Below, piece after piece: positions 1 through 5,666 of a stretch of 5,666 nt of DNA (position 1 is the stretch's first letter; each line of letters begins with the position of its first letter). The DNA comes from a virus (lineage: Duplodnaviria; Heunggongvirae; Uroviricota; Caudoviricetes), in IMG/VR virus record IMGVR_UViG_2531839238_000021, positions 1-5,666 of that record; one strand, 5' to 3'. A program made the position numbers.

Positions 1-3000
1 GCGGCTCATGTCCTGCACATCATGCAGACAATGGTCCGCCGGAATGATGTCGTTATACTTACAGGCGGCACCTCCCGGTGTCACCGTACTGCGACGCGCT
101 AACTGTTTAATTCGTGGATCAGGACTGTCGAATGTATCCGGTAATGGCAGTCCCTCACCGTATGACATACCATTGGACTGACCAGCAAGCGCGATCACAT
201 AGTAATATTCTGGCGCAACAGAAGGCGCTGAGGTCGTCGGACGGTTGCCTGGCTCCTCTGGTGATGAGATGCTCCCCTCACTCACAACTGGCTGGATGAA
301 CTCCGCACCATAACCAGCTGTCGAAATCAGCGCACTACCATAAGGCTGCCACCCTTCCTTCAGTTTTTGAGTTATTCGTTCCGCAAGGTCTGACGGCGAC
401 GCCGCCCTGACCACGTCATAGTGTTTAAATGCCATGAATCCTCCCGGTCGGGATAATGTGTGAGTCAGATGAGGAGCGGGCTGAAGTCCGGAAGTTACAG
501 GACAATGGCAGAAGGAAGACTACAGCCCGAAATACGAAAAAGGCCGCGCAGTTGCGCAGCCTTATGAATCCTGGTTAAAATGATTTCGATTATTAAAACG
601 AGTATCTCATGCAATTGCCCGAACCCACTCGGGCTTTTTTACATGTAAAAAGGCCCCTGCTATGAGAGGCCTTGGTATATGCCTAATCTCTGTATACTGC
701 ATGGTGCCGGGTGCCTCCCGGTGAGTTCGGCCTGGTACCACCGAACCCGTGTCGATAATGAATCACAAGCAAGGATTTTTCACCAGTCGCCCCTCCACAC
801 AGGGGGATTCACCATGCGAAATTTTTTTAACAAATGCTCAGTCTGACAGGCAACTGTCAACTGACTGAATTGTGACACAGATTACACTTGTTACCCACAT
901 ACCACGAATCAGGTTATGCCTCAGTCATTATTAAACTGCACTTCAGCAAATCCGGAGCCTGATTCACAGGTACTGGATTTGATTGTGACAGTCATTCCTG
1001 TCAACTGAGCACTTTGCAGTAACGGTTGCAGATTCCAGCGACTGGTCCAGTATTCTTTCCCGTCAACCTTCACTGTAAATGTGTCATCCTCATTATACTT
1101 GGAAAACTCAATTTTACCTTTAGCACAATCCGCCGCCATTGCATTAACAGAAGCTAATGCAAATAAAACCGCCATAAACATCTTCTTCATGCTTAACTCC
1201 TTTATTTACCCGTTGTATATAAAAACTGTGACTTTCTGTTCAGAAACGCTGCAGCTGTATTACTTTCCCATAATGTATTGTTTATTTTTATAACAGGCCT
1301 GTCGCCAGTTATCTGACATTCTGGTTGACTCTCTTCATTCACGGCGCGAACAGAACGCGCCCCCTGATGATGGCAATTCAGTATAACGGCCACAGTCCCC
1401 AGTATCGCTGATATATTATTAAAGGATATTCTCCCCACTCTGACACCATCCTCTCCCCGATACTCCGGAAGCACATTGCTGATTCGCCCCCAGTTCAGAG
1501 TGAGGTCCACGTCTCCCGGCGTCATCGTATACACAGGAGCAGTTTCAGACAGTGCCTGACGAAATTCTCTCTGTATCTGCCTGAAGCGTAAGGCTTCTGC
1601 TGTGACAGTGACAAAACGCAGAACTGCTCTGGATGCATCTCTGGTCATTGTATTACCACTGAACTCCATTAACGCCAGATATGATGAAACCAGTGAGTGA
1701 CGACTGATTTGCATTCCGGAACGTTCCAGCGCTGCGACACGTTGCAGAGTGGTATAACTGCTGTCCGTTGTCATGGAAACCGTTGTCACACCGGGCACTG
1801 ATATATGTGTAAAATCTGAAAAACGGTAGAAAGTATTTGTTGCCGTATTAACGAACCCGGCCACATATAAATTATTTTGCTCAATAATCAGACGAAGATG
1901 GTCAAAACGCGCCTGATAGACATCAAGCCCTCGTATATCCACAGCAAAATAACTGCCCGGTGGGGTGTGGTTAATAACAGACACCGATGTGGTCCCCTGA
2001 GATATATGTTCAAGAGGGGTCGATATCTCTGTCCGTATACTATTTAACGAAGAGACATAACTTTGTTGGGTCGAAAAGTCTATCGTAAACTCCCGGGAAT
2101 AGGATACCGAAGAAAAACCCAGTAACAGGCACAGTACCCATTTAAATAATATACACTTCATATACAGGTGTTCCTTTTGGCTGAAGTAATCAGCACCAGA
2201 CCCGGCGCAGATATAAAAAAGGCCCGCAAAAGCGAGCCTGGTAAATAAATATGGCGCGTTGTACTGGATTCGAACCAGTGACCGATTGCTCAGAAGGCAA
2301 TTGCTCTGTCCGGCTGAGCTAACAACGCATAATGCAGATAATGGACCGCCATCGAGGACTCGAACCCCGCGCAACCAGCTTCGAAGGCTGGCGCTCTGTC
2401 CTGATGAGCTAATGGCGGTATGTGATATGGTGGCCCTTGCTGGATTTGAACCAGCGACCTGGCGATTATGAGTCGCTCGCTCTCACCACTGAGCTAAAGG
2501 GCTGGGTCAAAAAATAATAATCAGATGAAAATCAATAATCAAGCCCTTGCCTGGATACATATCTGTCTGGCGGGAAGCCATAATAGCGGTGAAATACAGA
2601 AATAAAGTAGGACCAGCTTGAATAACCGCATTTTTCTGCTACAGCCTGTCCATATCCATGCCGGGAACATAACATATTGACAGCAACACGCATCCGCTCT
2701 TCCAGCAACAAGCGACTGAACATGTGCCCTTCATTTTTCAGTTTTATCTTTAACAAACTCTCACTCATATGCAGGCGTAACGCAATCGCACCAAGCGTCC
2801 AGCTTGCTGATATATCTGTCTGAATTATCGCCCTGACTTTGGCACTTATACTGGATAAACATCCACTTAAAAATAATAATATCCGTTCATCTGATTCAAA
2901 CAGCGACAGGCATGCCATCATAAGAAACATATCCGTGGTATCTCCGGAAAATCTCTGGCTGGTAATTAAAGCCTCAGCCAACGCAGGGTTGTTGGGTTCC

Positions 3001-5666
3001 AGTGACAGATAAAGCGGAACGTCAGTCAGATGAGTTCTTGTCAGCTTATGCTGAATTTCCAGATATTGACTTACTATGGAATGGTTTATATCGAAAATTT
3101 TAACTTTGCCATAATGCATAAGGAAAAGCGCCCTGATGCATTTGGTGGCCAGAACGACTGAGCCGGGCTTAAGTGACAACGTATCCTTTTCAAGAAAAAT
3201 ATTAATTGGGGAGCAAACCATGATAACTGAACAGACAACAACCATTATAATTTTACTTTCATTAGCAATTGGTTAGTTCAATTATAGCCCCAAAAGGTAA
3301 ATTATCATCAACACATAAGCAAAGGACTGACAGGTGCCGCTAACCCCACCAGCCGCCCATTTACCACAAATAAAAAAGCCTTCAGGACTGAAGGCGTCTG
3401 TAACAACCGAACTGATAGTCTGCCAGACCCGCCATAACCAGCTGGGTCAGTATTAACTGGCAGCGTTCGCGTGAAAGGTACGTATTCTGCGCAATCTCCC
3501 CGACCGTCGCCGGTTCGGTGACGCTTAATTCATCAAACACAACTCTGGCGGTTTCTGTCATATCCTGCTGTTTCAGCATGTCTTTTTACCCTTTCCGGTT
3601 AACGTGACACACCAATAACTCTTGTCGAAAAAGCCAGCAAGCTGAAAGACCTGTATTAATAACTACCAGCACATTTAACGCACTGCGCTACTTTGCGGGC
3701 ACAAAAAACCCGCTCAGAGGCGGGGTCAAGCTATGCGGCGAAATAACCACTCTTAACAGCATACCTGATTTTTTACGTACGTAAATGCTTTGCCGTGCAT
3801 ATTTTTCATGCAAATGTCACGTCCTGCTATTTTTCAGTCTTATAAATTTAAAACCATAGAAAAAATCAATTATGTTTTAAAAATGGATAGGTAAAGAATA
3901 ACAAGTGACACAGATTCAAACCAAAATGGAAAAGGGTGGCAACCCACAAACGCCCACTCCACATCCATGACAATCCATACACAACACCAGATAACGTGGC
4001 AAATAATACAAGTAAAGCACCACCTGAATAGTGATAAAAACCAAACAACAAAGCCGCCACAATTAATGCAACCAATGGAGACGTTACTTCTGATAGCCGT
4101 GATTGAATATACCCTCTAAATAATGATTCCTCTGCCAGAGACACAAAAAACAAATTAGCCAATATAAACTCTGGCAACCACTCAGGAAAATGAATCTCTG
4201 GCTTTAATCCACCAAAAAAAACAGCCAAAAACAGGATAAGAGGAACAGAGAGCGACAGAGCCCCCCACTTCCACAAAGACACTTCTGATTTTACTTCTTT
4301 TTTAAACAAAGAAGATGTACACAGGACTAACAAAAATGGCACCAGCGCTTTATCAAAATTAAAATACATTGTATAGGGAGTACTTTGAGGGCCAACAGTA
4401 ACAGAATTTAGCACTACAGGATTGTGAAACCCTGGCCATAGATGGAAAAATAATGCTATGGCTGATAAAACTATGCCAACTTCATATATAGATTTAGCCC
4501 AGGCGTTATATTTCCAGTTGAACTTCAAAATAATAAAAAAAACGATTGTAGCAACAAAAAATAACACCGACCAATCAATAATATCATTAAGCACAGCCAG
4601 GACAACAGACACCGTCAACAATGAAAAAGCCACTACCTTATGCCAACTGAGAGTTGACAGTGACAGTACTAACACAATCCACATAAGCACTCCTTTTATT
4701 TAATGATGAAGATTGATTATCAATATTTTCAATTCACCAGGCAACATTTTATCTACCTTCCACAATACATGACCATCAAAAAATAAACATGTTAATTATA
4801 AACACAGAAAACATAACCCTCATCACTATATATCCCTACCGCATATCCATATCTAACCGGACATTCAGAGCCATAAGCATTCCTTCAATAATACCTTCCG
4901 CTTTATAAAGCCTTTTACCAATAAGCCCATCAGAACATCTATGCTTACGTGCAAGAGCCATAAATGTCATTCCACCTACGTAATAATCCACCAACAAATC
5001 GTGCAAATACTGATTATTCTTGTTTAATCGTGCCATACAACCACAAATTATCATGGCGTCATCATCAGAACACTTAGGACGTGATTTCACTTTAGTCGGG
5101 ATTAATCCTTTAAAACCAGCAGCTATCGAGGGCCATGTTACATCTTCATGATTATTTGCTGCCCATGCCCCCCATCGCTCAAGAACCATCTGGATATCAC
5201 GCGCCATCGTTACCACCTCTGATTTCGTAAATCTTCACGCCCAGCCGTCCACCTGGCACAGGCTGACCGCGCACAATATTGATTTCATCAAACTGCTCGT
5301 CATCAATGAGCACTTCCGCATGCGTCAGCGCATCCAGCGGTGCTTTCAGAATGTTGTCCAGGTCACGGCGGCGCTTATCCGGTGGTTCTGCAATAATTTT
5401 TATTGCCAGCCGTCCGGACAGGCTTAATTTCAGCCGCTGCTGGCGAACAATAAGCGCCACAGCCCGGCGATAACGCTCACCGGCTTTTGATACAAAATAT
5501 GTGCTGCCACGACGTCGCCAGTAGGTGTTCACCGTCGGCGGGTAAGGCAAAACAAACTCTATACGCATCAGTAACCTCTTTTACCCGAGCACGCCGGTTG
5601 CAAAGGCGTGATCAAGAAAACGAAAAATTAAATCAACCTGGGAACCATGCTTTTCTTCGAACGCCA

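What the first reader, a model, noticed from the sequence alone, without database searches (positions are those of the whole stretch)
2504..3245. AraC-family regulator directly upstream of the tRNA-stx2 cluster, with the tRNA promoter embedded in its 3' end
The regulator's stop codon is only 28 nt from the mature 5' end of the first tRNA, and the best candidate tRNA promoter overlaps that stop codon. The tRNAs are therefore either co-transcribed with the regulator or driven by a promoter inside its 3' end. AraC-family regulators on EHEC prophages are known to rewire host virulence and acid-resistance regulons, so one sitting next to stx2 is a candidate link between an environmental signal and toxin or tRNA expression, or host gene control. 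No Shine-Dalgarno is visible at either candidate start, so translation may be inefficient or leaderless.
Basis: partly seen in the sequence, partly recalled or inferred. Interest (0 to 1): 0.55.

Follow-up and report, generated by a model that had tools for sequence, protein, structure and literature searches.

The report
Known PsrA regulator beside tRNAs and stx2a
The flagged gene is psrA, an already studied prophage regulator of acid resistance and type III secretion; it sits in its usual place just upstream of a phage tRNA cluster whose likely promoter overlaps its last codons, and only its position next to stx2a is unusual.

Summary
A 237-aa AraC-family ORF lies on the minus strand at 2532-3245. 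Its TGA stop is 28 nt from the 5' end of tRNA-Ile(CAT). A sigma-70-like site, TTGATT-17-TATTAT, spans that stop.

The gene is not new. Its product is 100% identical to the Sakai prophage Sp4 ECs_1087 ORF, which its discoverers' lab calls psrA. The DNA occurs in 726 of 5426 complete E. coli genomes, always between Q and the lysis genes. In the alleles 78-100% identical it lies 26-28 nt upstream of the same tRNA module.

The tRNA-promoter idea is supported, not proven. 933W and other prophages carry an equivalent site (annotated pT) at the same distance from ileZ. Published dRNA-seq in Sakai found a primary start that "appears to drive" those tRNAs. In psr-type prophages the -35 falls in the last psr codons.

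Nothing ties PsrA to stx2. The toxin genes lie in the Q-dependent late transcript.

The window is a mosaic: 933W-like up to the tRNAs, Sp4-like beyond. No complete genome carries this psrA allele next to stx2a. Sixteen carry a ~92-93% (DNA) psr allele next to stx2d or stx2k. A rare recombinant and an assembly chimera are both possible.

The parts
2532..3245 (-). psrA coding sequence: 237 aa, an AraC/XylS-family regulator of the YdeO/GadX-like branch.
   Evidence: ORF. Pfam HTH_18 and HTH_AraC. 100% identical to the Sakai Sp4 ECs_1087 ORF. The 90%-identity cluster it represents holds 2285 member sequences. dN/dS is 0.23-0.31 against homologues. N-terminus conserved.
3281..3308 (-). Putative promoter of psrA itself (ATGATA-16-TATAAT). 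The start is expected near 3274, giving a leader of about 29 nt.
   Evidence: Best consensus match in the scanned region, 10 of 12. Sequence shown. Prediction only.
3368..3395 (-). Intrinsic-terminator-like hairpin plus T-run at the end of the TrmB-like ORF. It would insulate psrA from upstream transcription in the lysogen.
   Evidence: GCCTTCAGTCCTGAAGGC followed by TTTTTTATTT. Prediction only.
2514..2542 (-). pT-like sigma-70 promoter for the tRNA cluster. The -35 TTGATT lies in the last three psrA codons, the TGA stop lies in the spacer, and the -10 TATTAT ends 10 nt before the tRNA.
   Evidence: The equivalent site in 933W is annotated pT. A primary start for the 933W-type tRNAs was seen by dRNA-seq (PMC7547250).
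2428..2503 (-). tRNA with anticodon CAT. It is ileZ-type tRNA-Ile2, which reads AUA.
   Evidence: ARAGORN, Rfam tRNA. Annotated tRNA-Ile/ileZ in RefSeq and in 933W.
2342..2418 (-). tRNA-Arg(TCG), argN-type.
2252..2328 (-). tRNA-Arg(TCT), argO-type.
2210..2239 (-). Intrinsic-terminator-like hairpin plus T-run between the tRNAs and stx2A.
   Evidence: The same element is annotated in 933W as a possible rho-independent terminator upstream of the stx genes.
1202..2161 (-). stx2A (319 codons). 933W-like; no differences from 933W between 472 and 2373.
921..1190 (-). stx2B.
3382..3579 (-). 65-aa TrmB-like winged-helix ORF. It precedes psr in many of the prophages examined.
   Evidence: Pfam TrmB, weak (E 0.0034, below the gathering score). 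phrog_331, E 3e-37. RefSeq name 'TrmB family transcriptional regulator'.
3866..4684 (-). CPBP/CAAX (Rce1-like) intramembrane protease gene. It is part of the Sp4-type cassette between Q and psrA.
   Evidence: Pfam Rce1-like, E 1.4e-19. phrog_13291, full length. Annotated ECs_1085 in Sakai.
4836..5216 (-). Q antiterminator (PF06530 type, not Q933). The late promoter pR' should lie in 4691-4835.
   Evidence: Pfam Phage_antitermQ, E 8.7e-52. The position of pR' is inferred, not mapped.

Best explanation
The ORF is psrA, the known prophage-encoded secretion regulator of EHEC. It sits in its normal cassette: Q, CPBP protease, TrmB-like ORF, psrA, then tRNA-Ile2/Arg/Arg. Here that cassette lies in front of stx2a instead of directly in front of nanS-p.

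Shown by published work, not here: PsrA raises gadE and yhiF expression and so indirectly represses LEE type III secretion.

Inferred from sequence:
- In the lysogen psrA is its own transcription unit. It has a terminator upstream and a near-consensus -10.
- The tRNA module has its own sigma-70 promoter. Its -10 (TATTAT) belongs to the tRNA module, and in psr-type prophages its -35 (TTGAtT) is supplied by the last psr codons.
- With no terminator in the 28-nt gap, psrA transcripts should also run into the tRNAs and be cut by RNase P.
- After induction, Q-modified polymerase from pR' should read through the whole cassette into stx2AB.
- The tRNAs decode AUA, AGA/AGG and CGA/CGG. AUA, AGA/AGG and CGA are unusually frequent in psrA and stx2A, which gives a reason for the linkage.
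- PsrA is not expected to regulate stx2.
For: Identity:
- tblastn gives 100% over residues 15-237 to Sakai L003 at the ECs_1087 locus. Residues 1-14 were not aligned, but the DNA from 2427 to 3343 is identical to Sp4.
- ECs_1087 is named psrA in PMC13502914.
- PsrA function is summarised in PMC10877973 and PMC8565820.

Family:
- Pfam HTH_18 and HTH_AraC.
- Full-length match to the YdeO profile at E 8.9e-30, and to GadX at 4.1e-25.
- The closest solved structures are the GadX DNA-binding domain, Rns, CsvR and ToxT.

Coding: dN/dS is 0.23-0.31, and the ORF stays intact at 237-244 aa down to 39% identity.

Context:
- The same cassette occurs in Sakai Sp4 and PV15-279, and in all ten long contigs shown (63 read).
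- Homologues always lie between Q and the nanS-p/lysis genes.

Promoter:
- TTGATT-17-TATTAT-10 nt-tRNA in the window. TTGATT-16-TATTAT in the Stx2k phage. TTGAAT-16-TACTAT in the 80% alleles.
- An unrelated upstream sequence in 933W, EH2201, Sp9, Sp10 and L010 carries TTGCrG-17-TATTAT-9 nt-tRNA at the same position, whatever the upstream neighbour. It is annotated pT in AF125520.

Other:
- Codons: ATA+AGA+AGG+CGA make 5.5 per 100 codons in psrA and 7.8 in stx2A.
- psrA is transcribed and regulated in Sakai.
Against: - No transcription start has been mapped for the psr-linked tRNA promoter. The support is consensus matching plus analogy.
- The region is AT-rich and promoter-like matches are common (15 in 2.9 kb).
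- In the 78% allele (L007) the -10 is degenerate (AACTGT), so the promoter is not uniformly kept.
- The TTGA of the -35 is also present in the 63% allele, which has no tRNA downstream (L009). Its conservation may therefore reflect coding for the C-terminal (L/V)(D/E)(F/Y).
- The reviews map psrA to z1789 in OI-50/CP-933N. The closed EDL933 prophage I fetched, which carries nleL/espN/espK, has no psr homologue. The gene-name mapping therefore rests on the 2026 Tree-lab paper.
Confidence: 0.75

Rival explanations
1. There is no internal promoter. The tRNAs are made only by read-through from the psrA promoter in the lysogen and from Q-antiterminated pR' after induction. The hexamer match at the stop codon is a by-product of AT-rich sequence and of the codons for the C-terminal Leu-Asp-Tyr.
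For: - Promoter-like matches are frequent here (15 found against 6.9 expected).
- The -10 is degenerate in L007.
- TTGA is kept in L009, which has no tRNA downstream.
- There is no convincing terminator between psrA and the tRNA.
Against: - A site with the same geometry sits 9 nt upstream of ileZ in five unrelated upstream contexts.
- That site has a mapped primary start in the Sakai Stx2a phage.
- The -10 TATTAT is identical and at the same distance in both types.
Confidence: 0.25
2. The juxtaposition of this psrA allele with stx2a is an assembly artefact. A short-read assembler joined an Sp4-like prophage and a 933W-like Stx2a prophage of one strain through their shared ~290-bp tRNA module.
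For: - Window 2-2506 is 99.2% identical to 933W, and 2427-5666 differs from Sakai Sp4 at only 4 positions. The switch falls inside the shared tRNA module.
- None of 5426 complete genomes, 50,697 phage records, IMG/VR contigs or JGI metagenome contigs has the join. The genome-contig scan was also negative but holds only one genome per species.
- All ten long contigs shown (of 63 read) that encode this exact protein have nanS-p, not stx2, downstream.
Against: - The same architecture (psr, 26-nt gap, tRNAs, stx2) is real in 16 closed genomes, with a ~92-93% (DNA) psr allele and stx2d or stx2k.
- The tRNA segment is not a clean two-parent join. It mixes 933W-like and Sp4-like variants at 2366-2503.
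- Recombination between lambdoid prophages at such shared modules is commonplace (established knowledge).
Confidence: 0.35
3. One reading: the AraC-type protein senses an environmental signal and directly controls the adjacent tRNA promoter or stx2.
For: Adjacency only. AraC-family proteins often regulate neighbouring genes (general knowledge). The same psr-tRNA module precedes several toxin cargos: stx2a, stx2d, stx2k and a SubAB-like toxin.
Against: - In most of the 726 genomes, to judge by the examples inspected, the same gene has no toxin downstream.
- Published targets are gadE, yhiF and hdeA.
- stx2 expression is known to depend on Q and pR'.
- I found no operator-like repeat, and no literature linking PsrA to stx.
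Confidence: 0.05

Closest known systems
[quoted passage not shown]
   Same: 100% identical over all aligned residues, with identical DNA from 2427 to 3343. Same flanking cassette: RusA, Q, CPBP, TrmB-like ORF, psrA, ileZ/argN/argO.
   Different: In Sakai and every other closed genome examined, the tRNAs are followed by nanS-p, not by stx2AB. The reviews give the EDL933 locus as z1789/OI-50, which I could not verify.
PsrB-type alleles (about 88-90% protein identity), including the psr genes of Stx2k and Stx2d prophages
   Same: Same length (237 aa). Same position, 26 nt upstream of tRNA-Ile. Same promoter-like hexamers. In 16 closed genomes they lie directly upstream of tRNAs and stx2.
   Different: 10-12% amino-acid divergence. 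Different Q genes and different genes between Q and the TrmB-like ORF.
pT, the putative tRNA promoter of phage 933W (GenBank AF125520 annotation; primary start seen in Sakai dRNA-seq)
   Same: Same -10 hexamer (TATTAT), a 17-nt spacer, and 9-10 nt from the -10 to the mature tRNA 5' end.
   Different: The -35 and spacer are not homologous (TTGCAG in non-coding or post-terminator DNA, against TTGATT inside psrA codons). The discriminator is GC-rich in 933W (CCTGCGCCC) and T-rich here (TTTTTGACCC).
YdeO, GadX, AppY and PatE (acid-resistance AraC-type regulators of E. coli)
   Same: Full-length similarity to the YdeO profile, including the N-terminal MxxVCSV motif. The GadX DNA-binding domain is the closest solved structure. 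37% identity to the Sp1 AraC-like ECs_0287, which I presume to be PatE.
   Different: Far below the equivalog cut-offs (104 vs 348 bits for YdeO, 88.5 vs 500 for GadX). It is a separate family found only in prophages (phrog_1450).

Membership tests
AraC/XylS family | C-terminal double helix-turn-helix DNA-binding domain of about 100 aa | tested here: met
   PF12833 HTH_18 covers residues 155-230 (36.6 bits, cut-off 33.6). PF00165 HTH_AraC scores 35.3 bits (cut-off 26.6). Residues 134-233 align to the GadX DNA-binding domain 3MKL at E 1.5e-18.
Psr family / PsrA | Sequence identity to the characterised PsrA | tested here: met
   100% to the Sakai ECs_1087 ORF, which PMC13502914 names psrA. Caveat: the original paper (Tree et al. 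2011) was not available, and the EDL933 locus z1789 was not verified.
Psr family / PsrA | Found only on lambdoid prophages, associated with effector loci and pch regulators | tested here: inconclusive
   The prophage late-region context is met: RusA and Q upstream, lysis genes downstream in all relatives. pchA lies about 4 kb downstream in Sakai Sp4, but the window ends before that position.
Psr family / PsrA | Activates gadE/yhiF and indirectly represses LEE type III secretion | not testable with these tools
   Taken from the literature only.
YdeO (NCBIfam NF007407 equivalog) | Score at or above the curated cut-off of 348 bits | tested here: not met
   104.1 bits, although the alignment is full length (1-229 against 1-230 of 253).
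GadX (NCBIfam NF007432 equivalog) | Score at or above the curated cut-off of 500 bits | tested here: not met
   88.5 bits, C-terminal half only.
PatE (z0321, OI-8) | Close identity to the Sp1/CP-933H AraC-like protein | tested here: not met
   37% identity over 235 aa to ECs_0287 of Sakai Sp1. That ECs_0287 is PatE is my inference from its position.
Sigma-70 tRNA promoter of the pT type | -35 and -10 hexamers with 16-18 nt spacing, placed so that transcription starts a few nt upstream of the mature tRNA | tested here: met
   TTGATT-17-TATTAT, with the -10 ending 10 nt before the tRNA. Same geometry as 933W pT.
Sigma-70 tRNA promoter of the pT type | Mapped primary transcription start | not testable with these tools
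   Reported for the 933W-type site in the Sakai Stx2a phage (PMC7547250).

The most novel reading that the evidence does not exclude
This may be a genuine recombinant Stx2a phage in which psrA lies inside the Q-dependent late transcript, between pR' and stx2a. Prophage induction would then co-express a GAD-activating, LEE-repressing regulator with the toxin. More generally, the psr-tRNA module (regulator, promoter overlapping its stop, rare-codon tRNAs) would be a portable expression platform that travels in front of different toxin cargos: stx2a, stx2d, stx2k and a SubAB-like AB5 toxin.
Probability: 0.15. Interest if true: 0.5.

Novelty: already known. Interest (0 to 1): 0.22.

Why it matters
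The practical gain is correct annotation. The gene that RefSeq calls 'helix-turn-helix domain-containing protein' next to stx2 is psrA, with a 237-aa product rather than the 195 aa in the Sakai annotation.

Two smaller points may interest EHEC and phage specialists.
- The phage tRNA promoter is kept at a fixed distance from ileZ in two unrelated upstream contexts, and in psr-type prophages it overlaps the end of the regulator gene. That allows transcriptional coupling or interference between psrA and the tRNAs.
- psr-tRNA modules precede several different toxin cargos.

If the psrA-stx2a join is real, the strain carries an Stx2a phage with a non-933W Q and about 2.6 kb of extra genes between pR' and stx2. 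That could affect toxin output.

Tried and rejected
- **Literature not held.** Tree et al. 2011 (PMC7099609), Yang et al. 2015 (PMC4288888) and Bender et al. 2012 (PMC3416394) were not in the library. The PsrA, PsrB and PatE facts therefore come from two reviews and a 2026 paper.
- **Hunt for psrB and z1789.** I fetched the EDL933 potC prophage and Sakai Sp9, Sp10 and Sp14. None has a psr gene. The second O157 copy implied (median 2 places per genome) was not located.
- **Join search.** I searched for the exact psrA-tRNA-stx2A join in genome contigs, viral contigs and metagenome contigs with a gapped pattern. There were no matches. The genome-contig result says little, because that collection holds one genome per species.
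- **Structure.** AlphaFold2 on a 14-sequence alignment gave a mean pLDDT of 59.8. That is too poor for a fold search, so none was run.
- **Defence role.** PADLOC found no defence-system match for PsrA, the TrmB-like ORF or the CPBP protease.
- **RNA families.** Rfam found no RNA family within 2504-3400.
- **Supplements.** The TSS tables of the dRNA-seq paper are not held.
- **Rejected: leaderless translation.** The promoter -10 lies about 36 nt upstream of the ATG.
- **Rejected: alternative starts.** The ATG at 3221 and the 195-aa Sakai start are both ruled out by the conserved N-terminus.
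Full report
**Anatomy**

All relevant genes lie on the minus strand. In transcription order they are:
- RusA, 5568-5197
- Q antiterminator, 5216-4836
- a CPBP/CAAX-type membrane protease, 4684-3866
- a 65-aa TrmB-like ORF, 3579-3382
- the flagged AraC-type ORF, 3245-2532
- tRNA(CAT), 2503-2428
- tRNA-Arg(TCG), 2418-2342
- tRNA-Arg(TCT), 2328-2252
- stx2A, 2161-1202
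- stx2B, 1190-921

Pfam confirms each assignment. RefSeq and the 933W record call the CAT tRNA tRNA-Ile (ileZ, reads AUA).

**Check of the observation**

The ORF ends ...GGG CTT GAT TAT TGA, with the TGA at 2534-2532. The tRNA 5' end is at 2503, so 28 nt separate them.

The consensus scan finds TTGATT (2542-2537), a 17-nt spacer and TATTAT (2519-2514) on the minus strand. The -35 is made of the Leu-Asp-Tyr codons and the stop codon lies in the spacer. The -10 ends 10 nt before the tRNA, so a start at about 2507-2508 would give a leader of 4-5 nt.

As a caution, this AT-rich region yields 15 matches of that quality in 2.9 kb, against 6.9 +/- 2.5 in shuffles.

**What the gene is**

- The protein has the double HTH of the AraC/XylS family.
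- It aligns over its full length with the YdeO profile (E 8.9e-30), but at 104 bits against a cut-off of 348. It aligns with GadX at 88.5 bits against 500.
- Its closest solved relatives are the GadX DNA-binding domain, Rns, CsvR and ToxT.
- It represents a protein cluster of 2285 member sequences, to whose representative it is 100% identical. All 53 homologues found for which a source gives a species name are from E. coli or Shigella.
- Its DNA is present in 726 of 5426 complete E. coli genomes, with a median of two copies.

Window 2215-5666 is 99.4% identical to prophage Sp4 of O157:H7 Sakai. The ORF is 100% identical to the ORF at ECs_1087, annotated 'AraC-family transcriptional regulator'. 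A 2026 paper from the laboratory that discovered the psr genes names ECs_1087 (Sp4) psrA. It reports that psrA is transcribed and rises together with gadE (PMC13502914).

Two reviews describe PsrA and PsrB (90% identical to each other) as prophage AraC-like regulators. They raise GadE and YhiF and so indirectly repress LEE type III secretion. PsrB and PatE also activate acid-resistance genes (PMC10877973 and PMC8565820). The presumed PatE of Sakai Sp1 (ECs_0287) is only 37% identical.

The gene is therefore already known and characterised.

One inconsistency remains. The reviews place psrA at z1789 in OI-50/CP-933N. The closed EDL933 prophage that carries nleL, espN and espK has no psr homologue. 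The original paper was not available.

**Is it a real gene, and where does it start?**

- Homologues down to 39% identity keep an intact ORF of 237-244 aa.
- They also keep the N-terminal motif MxVxCSVIMVCSP, which is the YdeO-type N-terminus.
- dN/dS against five homologues is 0.23-0.31.

The ATG at 3245 is therefore the start. The 195-aa Sakai annotation is too short.

The best promoter match of the whole region (ATGATA-16-TATAAT, 3308-3281) lies about 36 nt upstream of the ATG. It follows a good terminator-like hairpin at 3395-3378. The gene therefore looks like an insulated unit with a leader, not a leaderless mRNA.

**The tRNA promoter**

This is the part of the finding that goes beyond annotation, and comparison supports it.

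The 933W GenBank record annotates 'pT; putative tRNA promoter' ending 9 nt upstream of ileZ. I compared the 70 nt upstream of the tRNA-Ile gene in ten loci.

| Type | Loci | Site | Upstream neighbour |
|---|---|---|---|
| A | 933W, Stx2_EH2201, Sakai Sp9, Sakai Sp10, L010 | TTGCrG-17-TATTAT-9 nt-tRNA | Varies: a terminator, Q, or a DNA methylase whose stop codon abuts the -35 |
| B (psr-linked) | Window/Sp4 | TTGATT-17-TATTAT-10 nt | psr |
| B (psr-linked) | Stx2k phage | TTGATT-16-TATTAT-9 nt | psr |
| B (psr-linked) | 80% alleles | TTGAAT-16-TACTAT-9 nt | psr |
| B (psr-linked) | 78% allele | TTGATT-16-AACTGT (weak -10) | psr |

The two types share only the TTATTAT around the -10, yet they keep promoter geometry at the same distance from the tRNA. 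[quoted passage not shown]

I conclude that a pT-like promoter overlapping the psrA stop is likely, at roughly 60-65%. It is not mapped. The TTGA of the -35 is also present in a 63% allele with no tRNA downstream (L009), so coding constraint alone could explain that hexamer.

No convincing terminator lies between psrA and the tRNA, so read-through from psrA is also expected. The first terminator is after the third tRNA (2239-2220). The same element is annotated in 933W.

**Why the linkage makes sense**

The codons ATA, AGA, AGG and CGA, which these tRNAs decode, make 5.5 per 100 codons in psrA and 7.8 per 100 in stx2A. ATA supplies 7 of 17 Ile codons in psrA and 15 of 20 in stx2A.

**Relation to stx2**

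No evidence links PsrA to the toxin.
- In most genomes, to judge by the examples inspected, the psrA-tRNA module is followed by nanS-p and lysis genes, not by stx.
- Homologues always occupy the slot between Q and nanS-p. In the loci examined this is the usual place for added (moron) genes such as stx.
- stx2 is a late gene driven by Q and pR'. In this window that transcript would have to pass about 2.6 kb and three terminator-like sites, which Q-modified polymerase is expected to do.

**Provenance of the join**

- Window 2-2506 is 99.2% identical to 933W, with no difference between 472 and 2373.
- Window 2427-5666 differs from Sakai Sp4 at only four positions.
- The switch lies within the shared tRNA module.
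- No complete E. coli genome, phage record, IMG/VR contig or JGI metagenome contig carries this psrA allele contiguous with stx2a. The genome-contig scan was also negative, but it holds one genome per species.
- Sixteen closed genomes carry a psr allele about 92-93% identical at the DNA level, followed by the tRNAs and stx2d or stx2k.

The architecture therefore exists in nature. This particular combination is either a rare recombinant or a short-read assembly chimera through the ~290-bp repeat. The mixed pattern of variants at 2366-2503 argues mildly against a simple two-parent chimera.

**Verdict**

The feature is a known gene in a known arrangement, so interest is low. What is modestly new:
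- the promoter-overlap detail and its comparative support;
- the corrected 237-aa gene model;
- the unusual neighbour, stx2a.

Noticed in passing
window 587-639 (+) and 641-846 (-): Rfam finds the anti-sRNA AsxR (88 bits, gathering 63) and the sRNA STnc100 (208 bits, gathering 47) just downstream of stx2B. Both are described RNA families, present here intact.
   Followed up: no
window 2212-2506 (tRNA module) as a recombination join: The window is a mosaic of 933W-like DNA (2-2506) and Sakai Sp4-like DNA (2427-5666), joined within the tRNA genes. No closed genome or phage record has this combination. It is either a rare recombinant Stx2a phage or an assembly chimera.
   Followed up: partly
L033, L034 and L035, positions about 5000-6930 (loci): An 88%-identical psr gene plus one tRNA-Ile(CAT) is followed by three genes in the slot where stx sits in the window. 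They are a 137-aa and a 136-aa subtilase-family AB5 toxin B subunit (NF038397, E 3.7e-52 and 6.2e-49) flanking a 343-aa S8 peptidase. This is a SubAB-like toxin with two B genes in a lambdoid prophage late region.
   Followed up: partly
L005 2814-2842; L026 about 17010-17078; L027 about 19636-19704; L006 and L010 equivalents: The 933W-type tRNA promoter (TTGCrG-17-TATTAT, 9 nt before ileZ) is conserved in front of the tRNA module whatever lies upstream: a terminator in Sp10, and a DNA methylase whose TGA stop abuts the -35 in Sp9, EH2201 and L010. The promoter seems to travel with the tRNA module.
   Followed up: yes
window 3866-4684 and 3382-3579 (-): A CPBP/CAAX intramembrane protease gene with a strong AAGGAG ribosome-binding site follows the Q gene directly, with no obvious tR' before it. 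A strong terminator-like hairpin (3724-3709) comes only after it. A conserved 65-aa TrmB-like ORF (phrog_331) then precedes psr in many of the prophages examined. Neither matches a PADLOC defence model. In Sakai the TrmB-like ORF is altered by a 1-nt indel at window 3432.
   Followed up: partly
L004 (EDL933 NZ_CP008957.1 1625001-1675000): Reviews place psrA at z1789 in OI-50/CP-933N. The closed EDL933 prophage that carries nleL, espN and espK has no psr homologue by tblastn. Either the old EDL933 assembly or the locus assignment in the reviews may be off. A second psr copy per O157 genome was not located in Sakai Sp9, Sp10 or Sp14.
   Followed up: partly
L003 18804-19391 (Sakai ECs_1087): The Sakai annotation starts psrA at an internal Met, giving 195 aa. 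Conservation of the N-terminal 42 residues across the family shows that the 237-aa form used by RefSeq PGAP is correct.
   Followed up: yes
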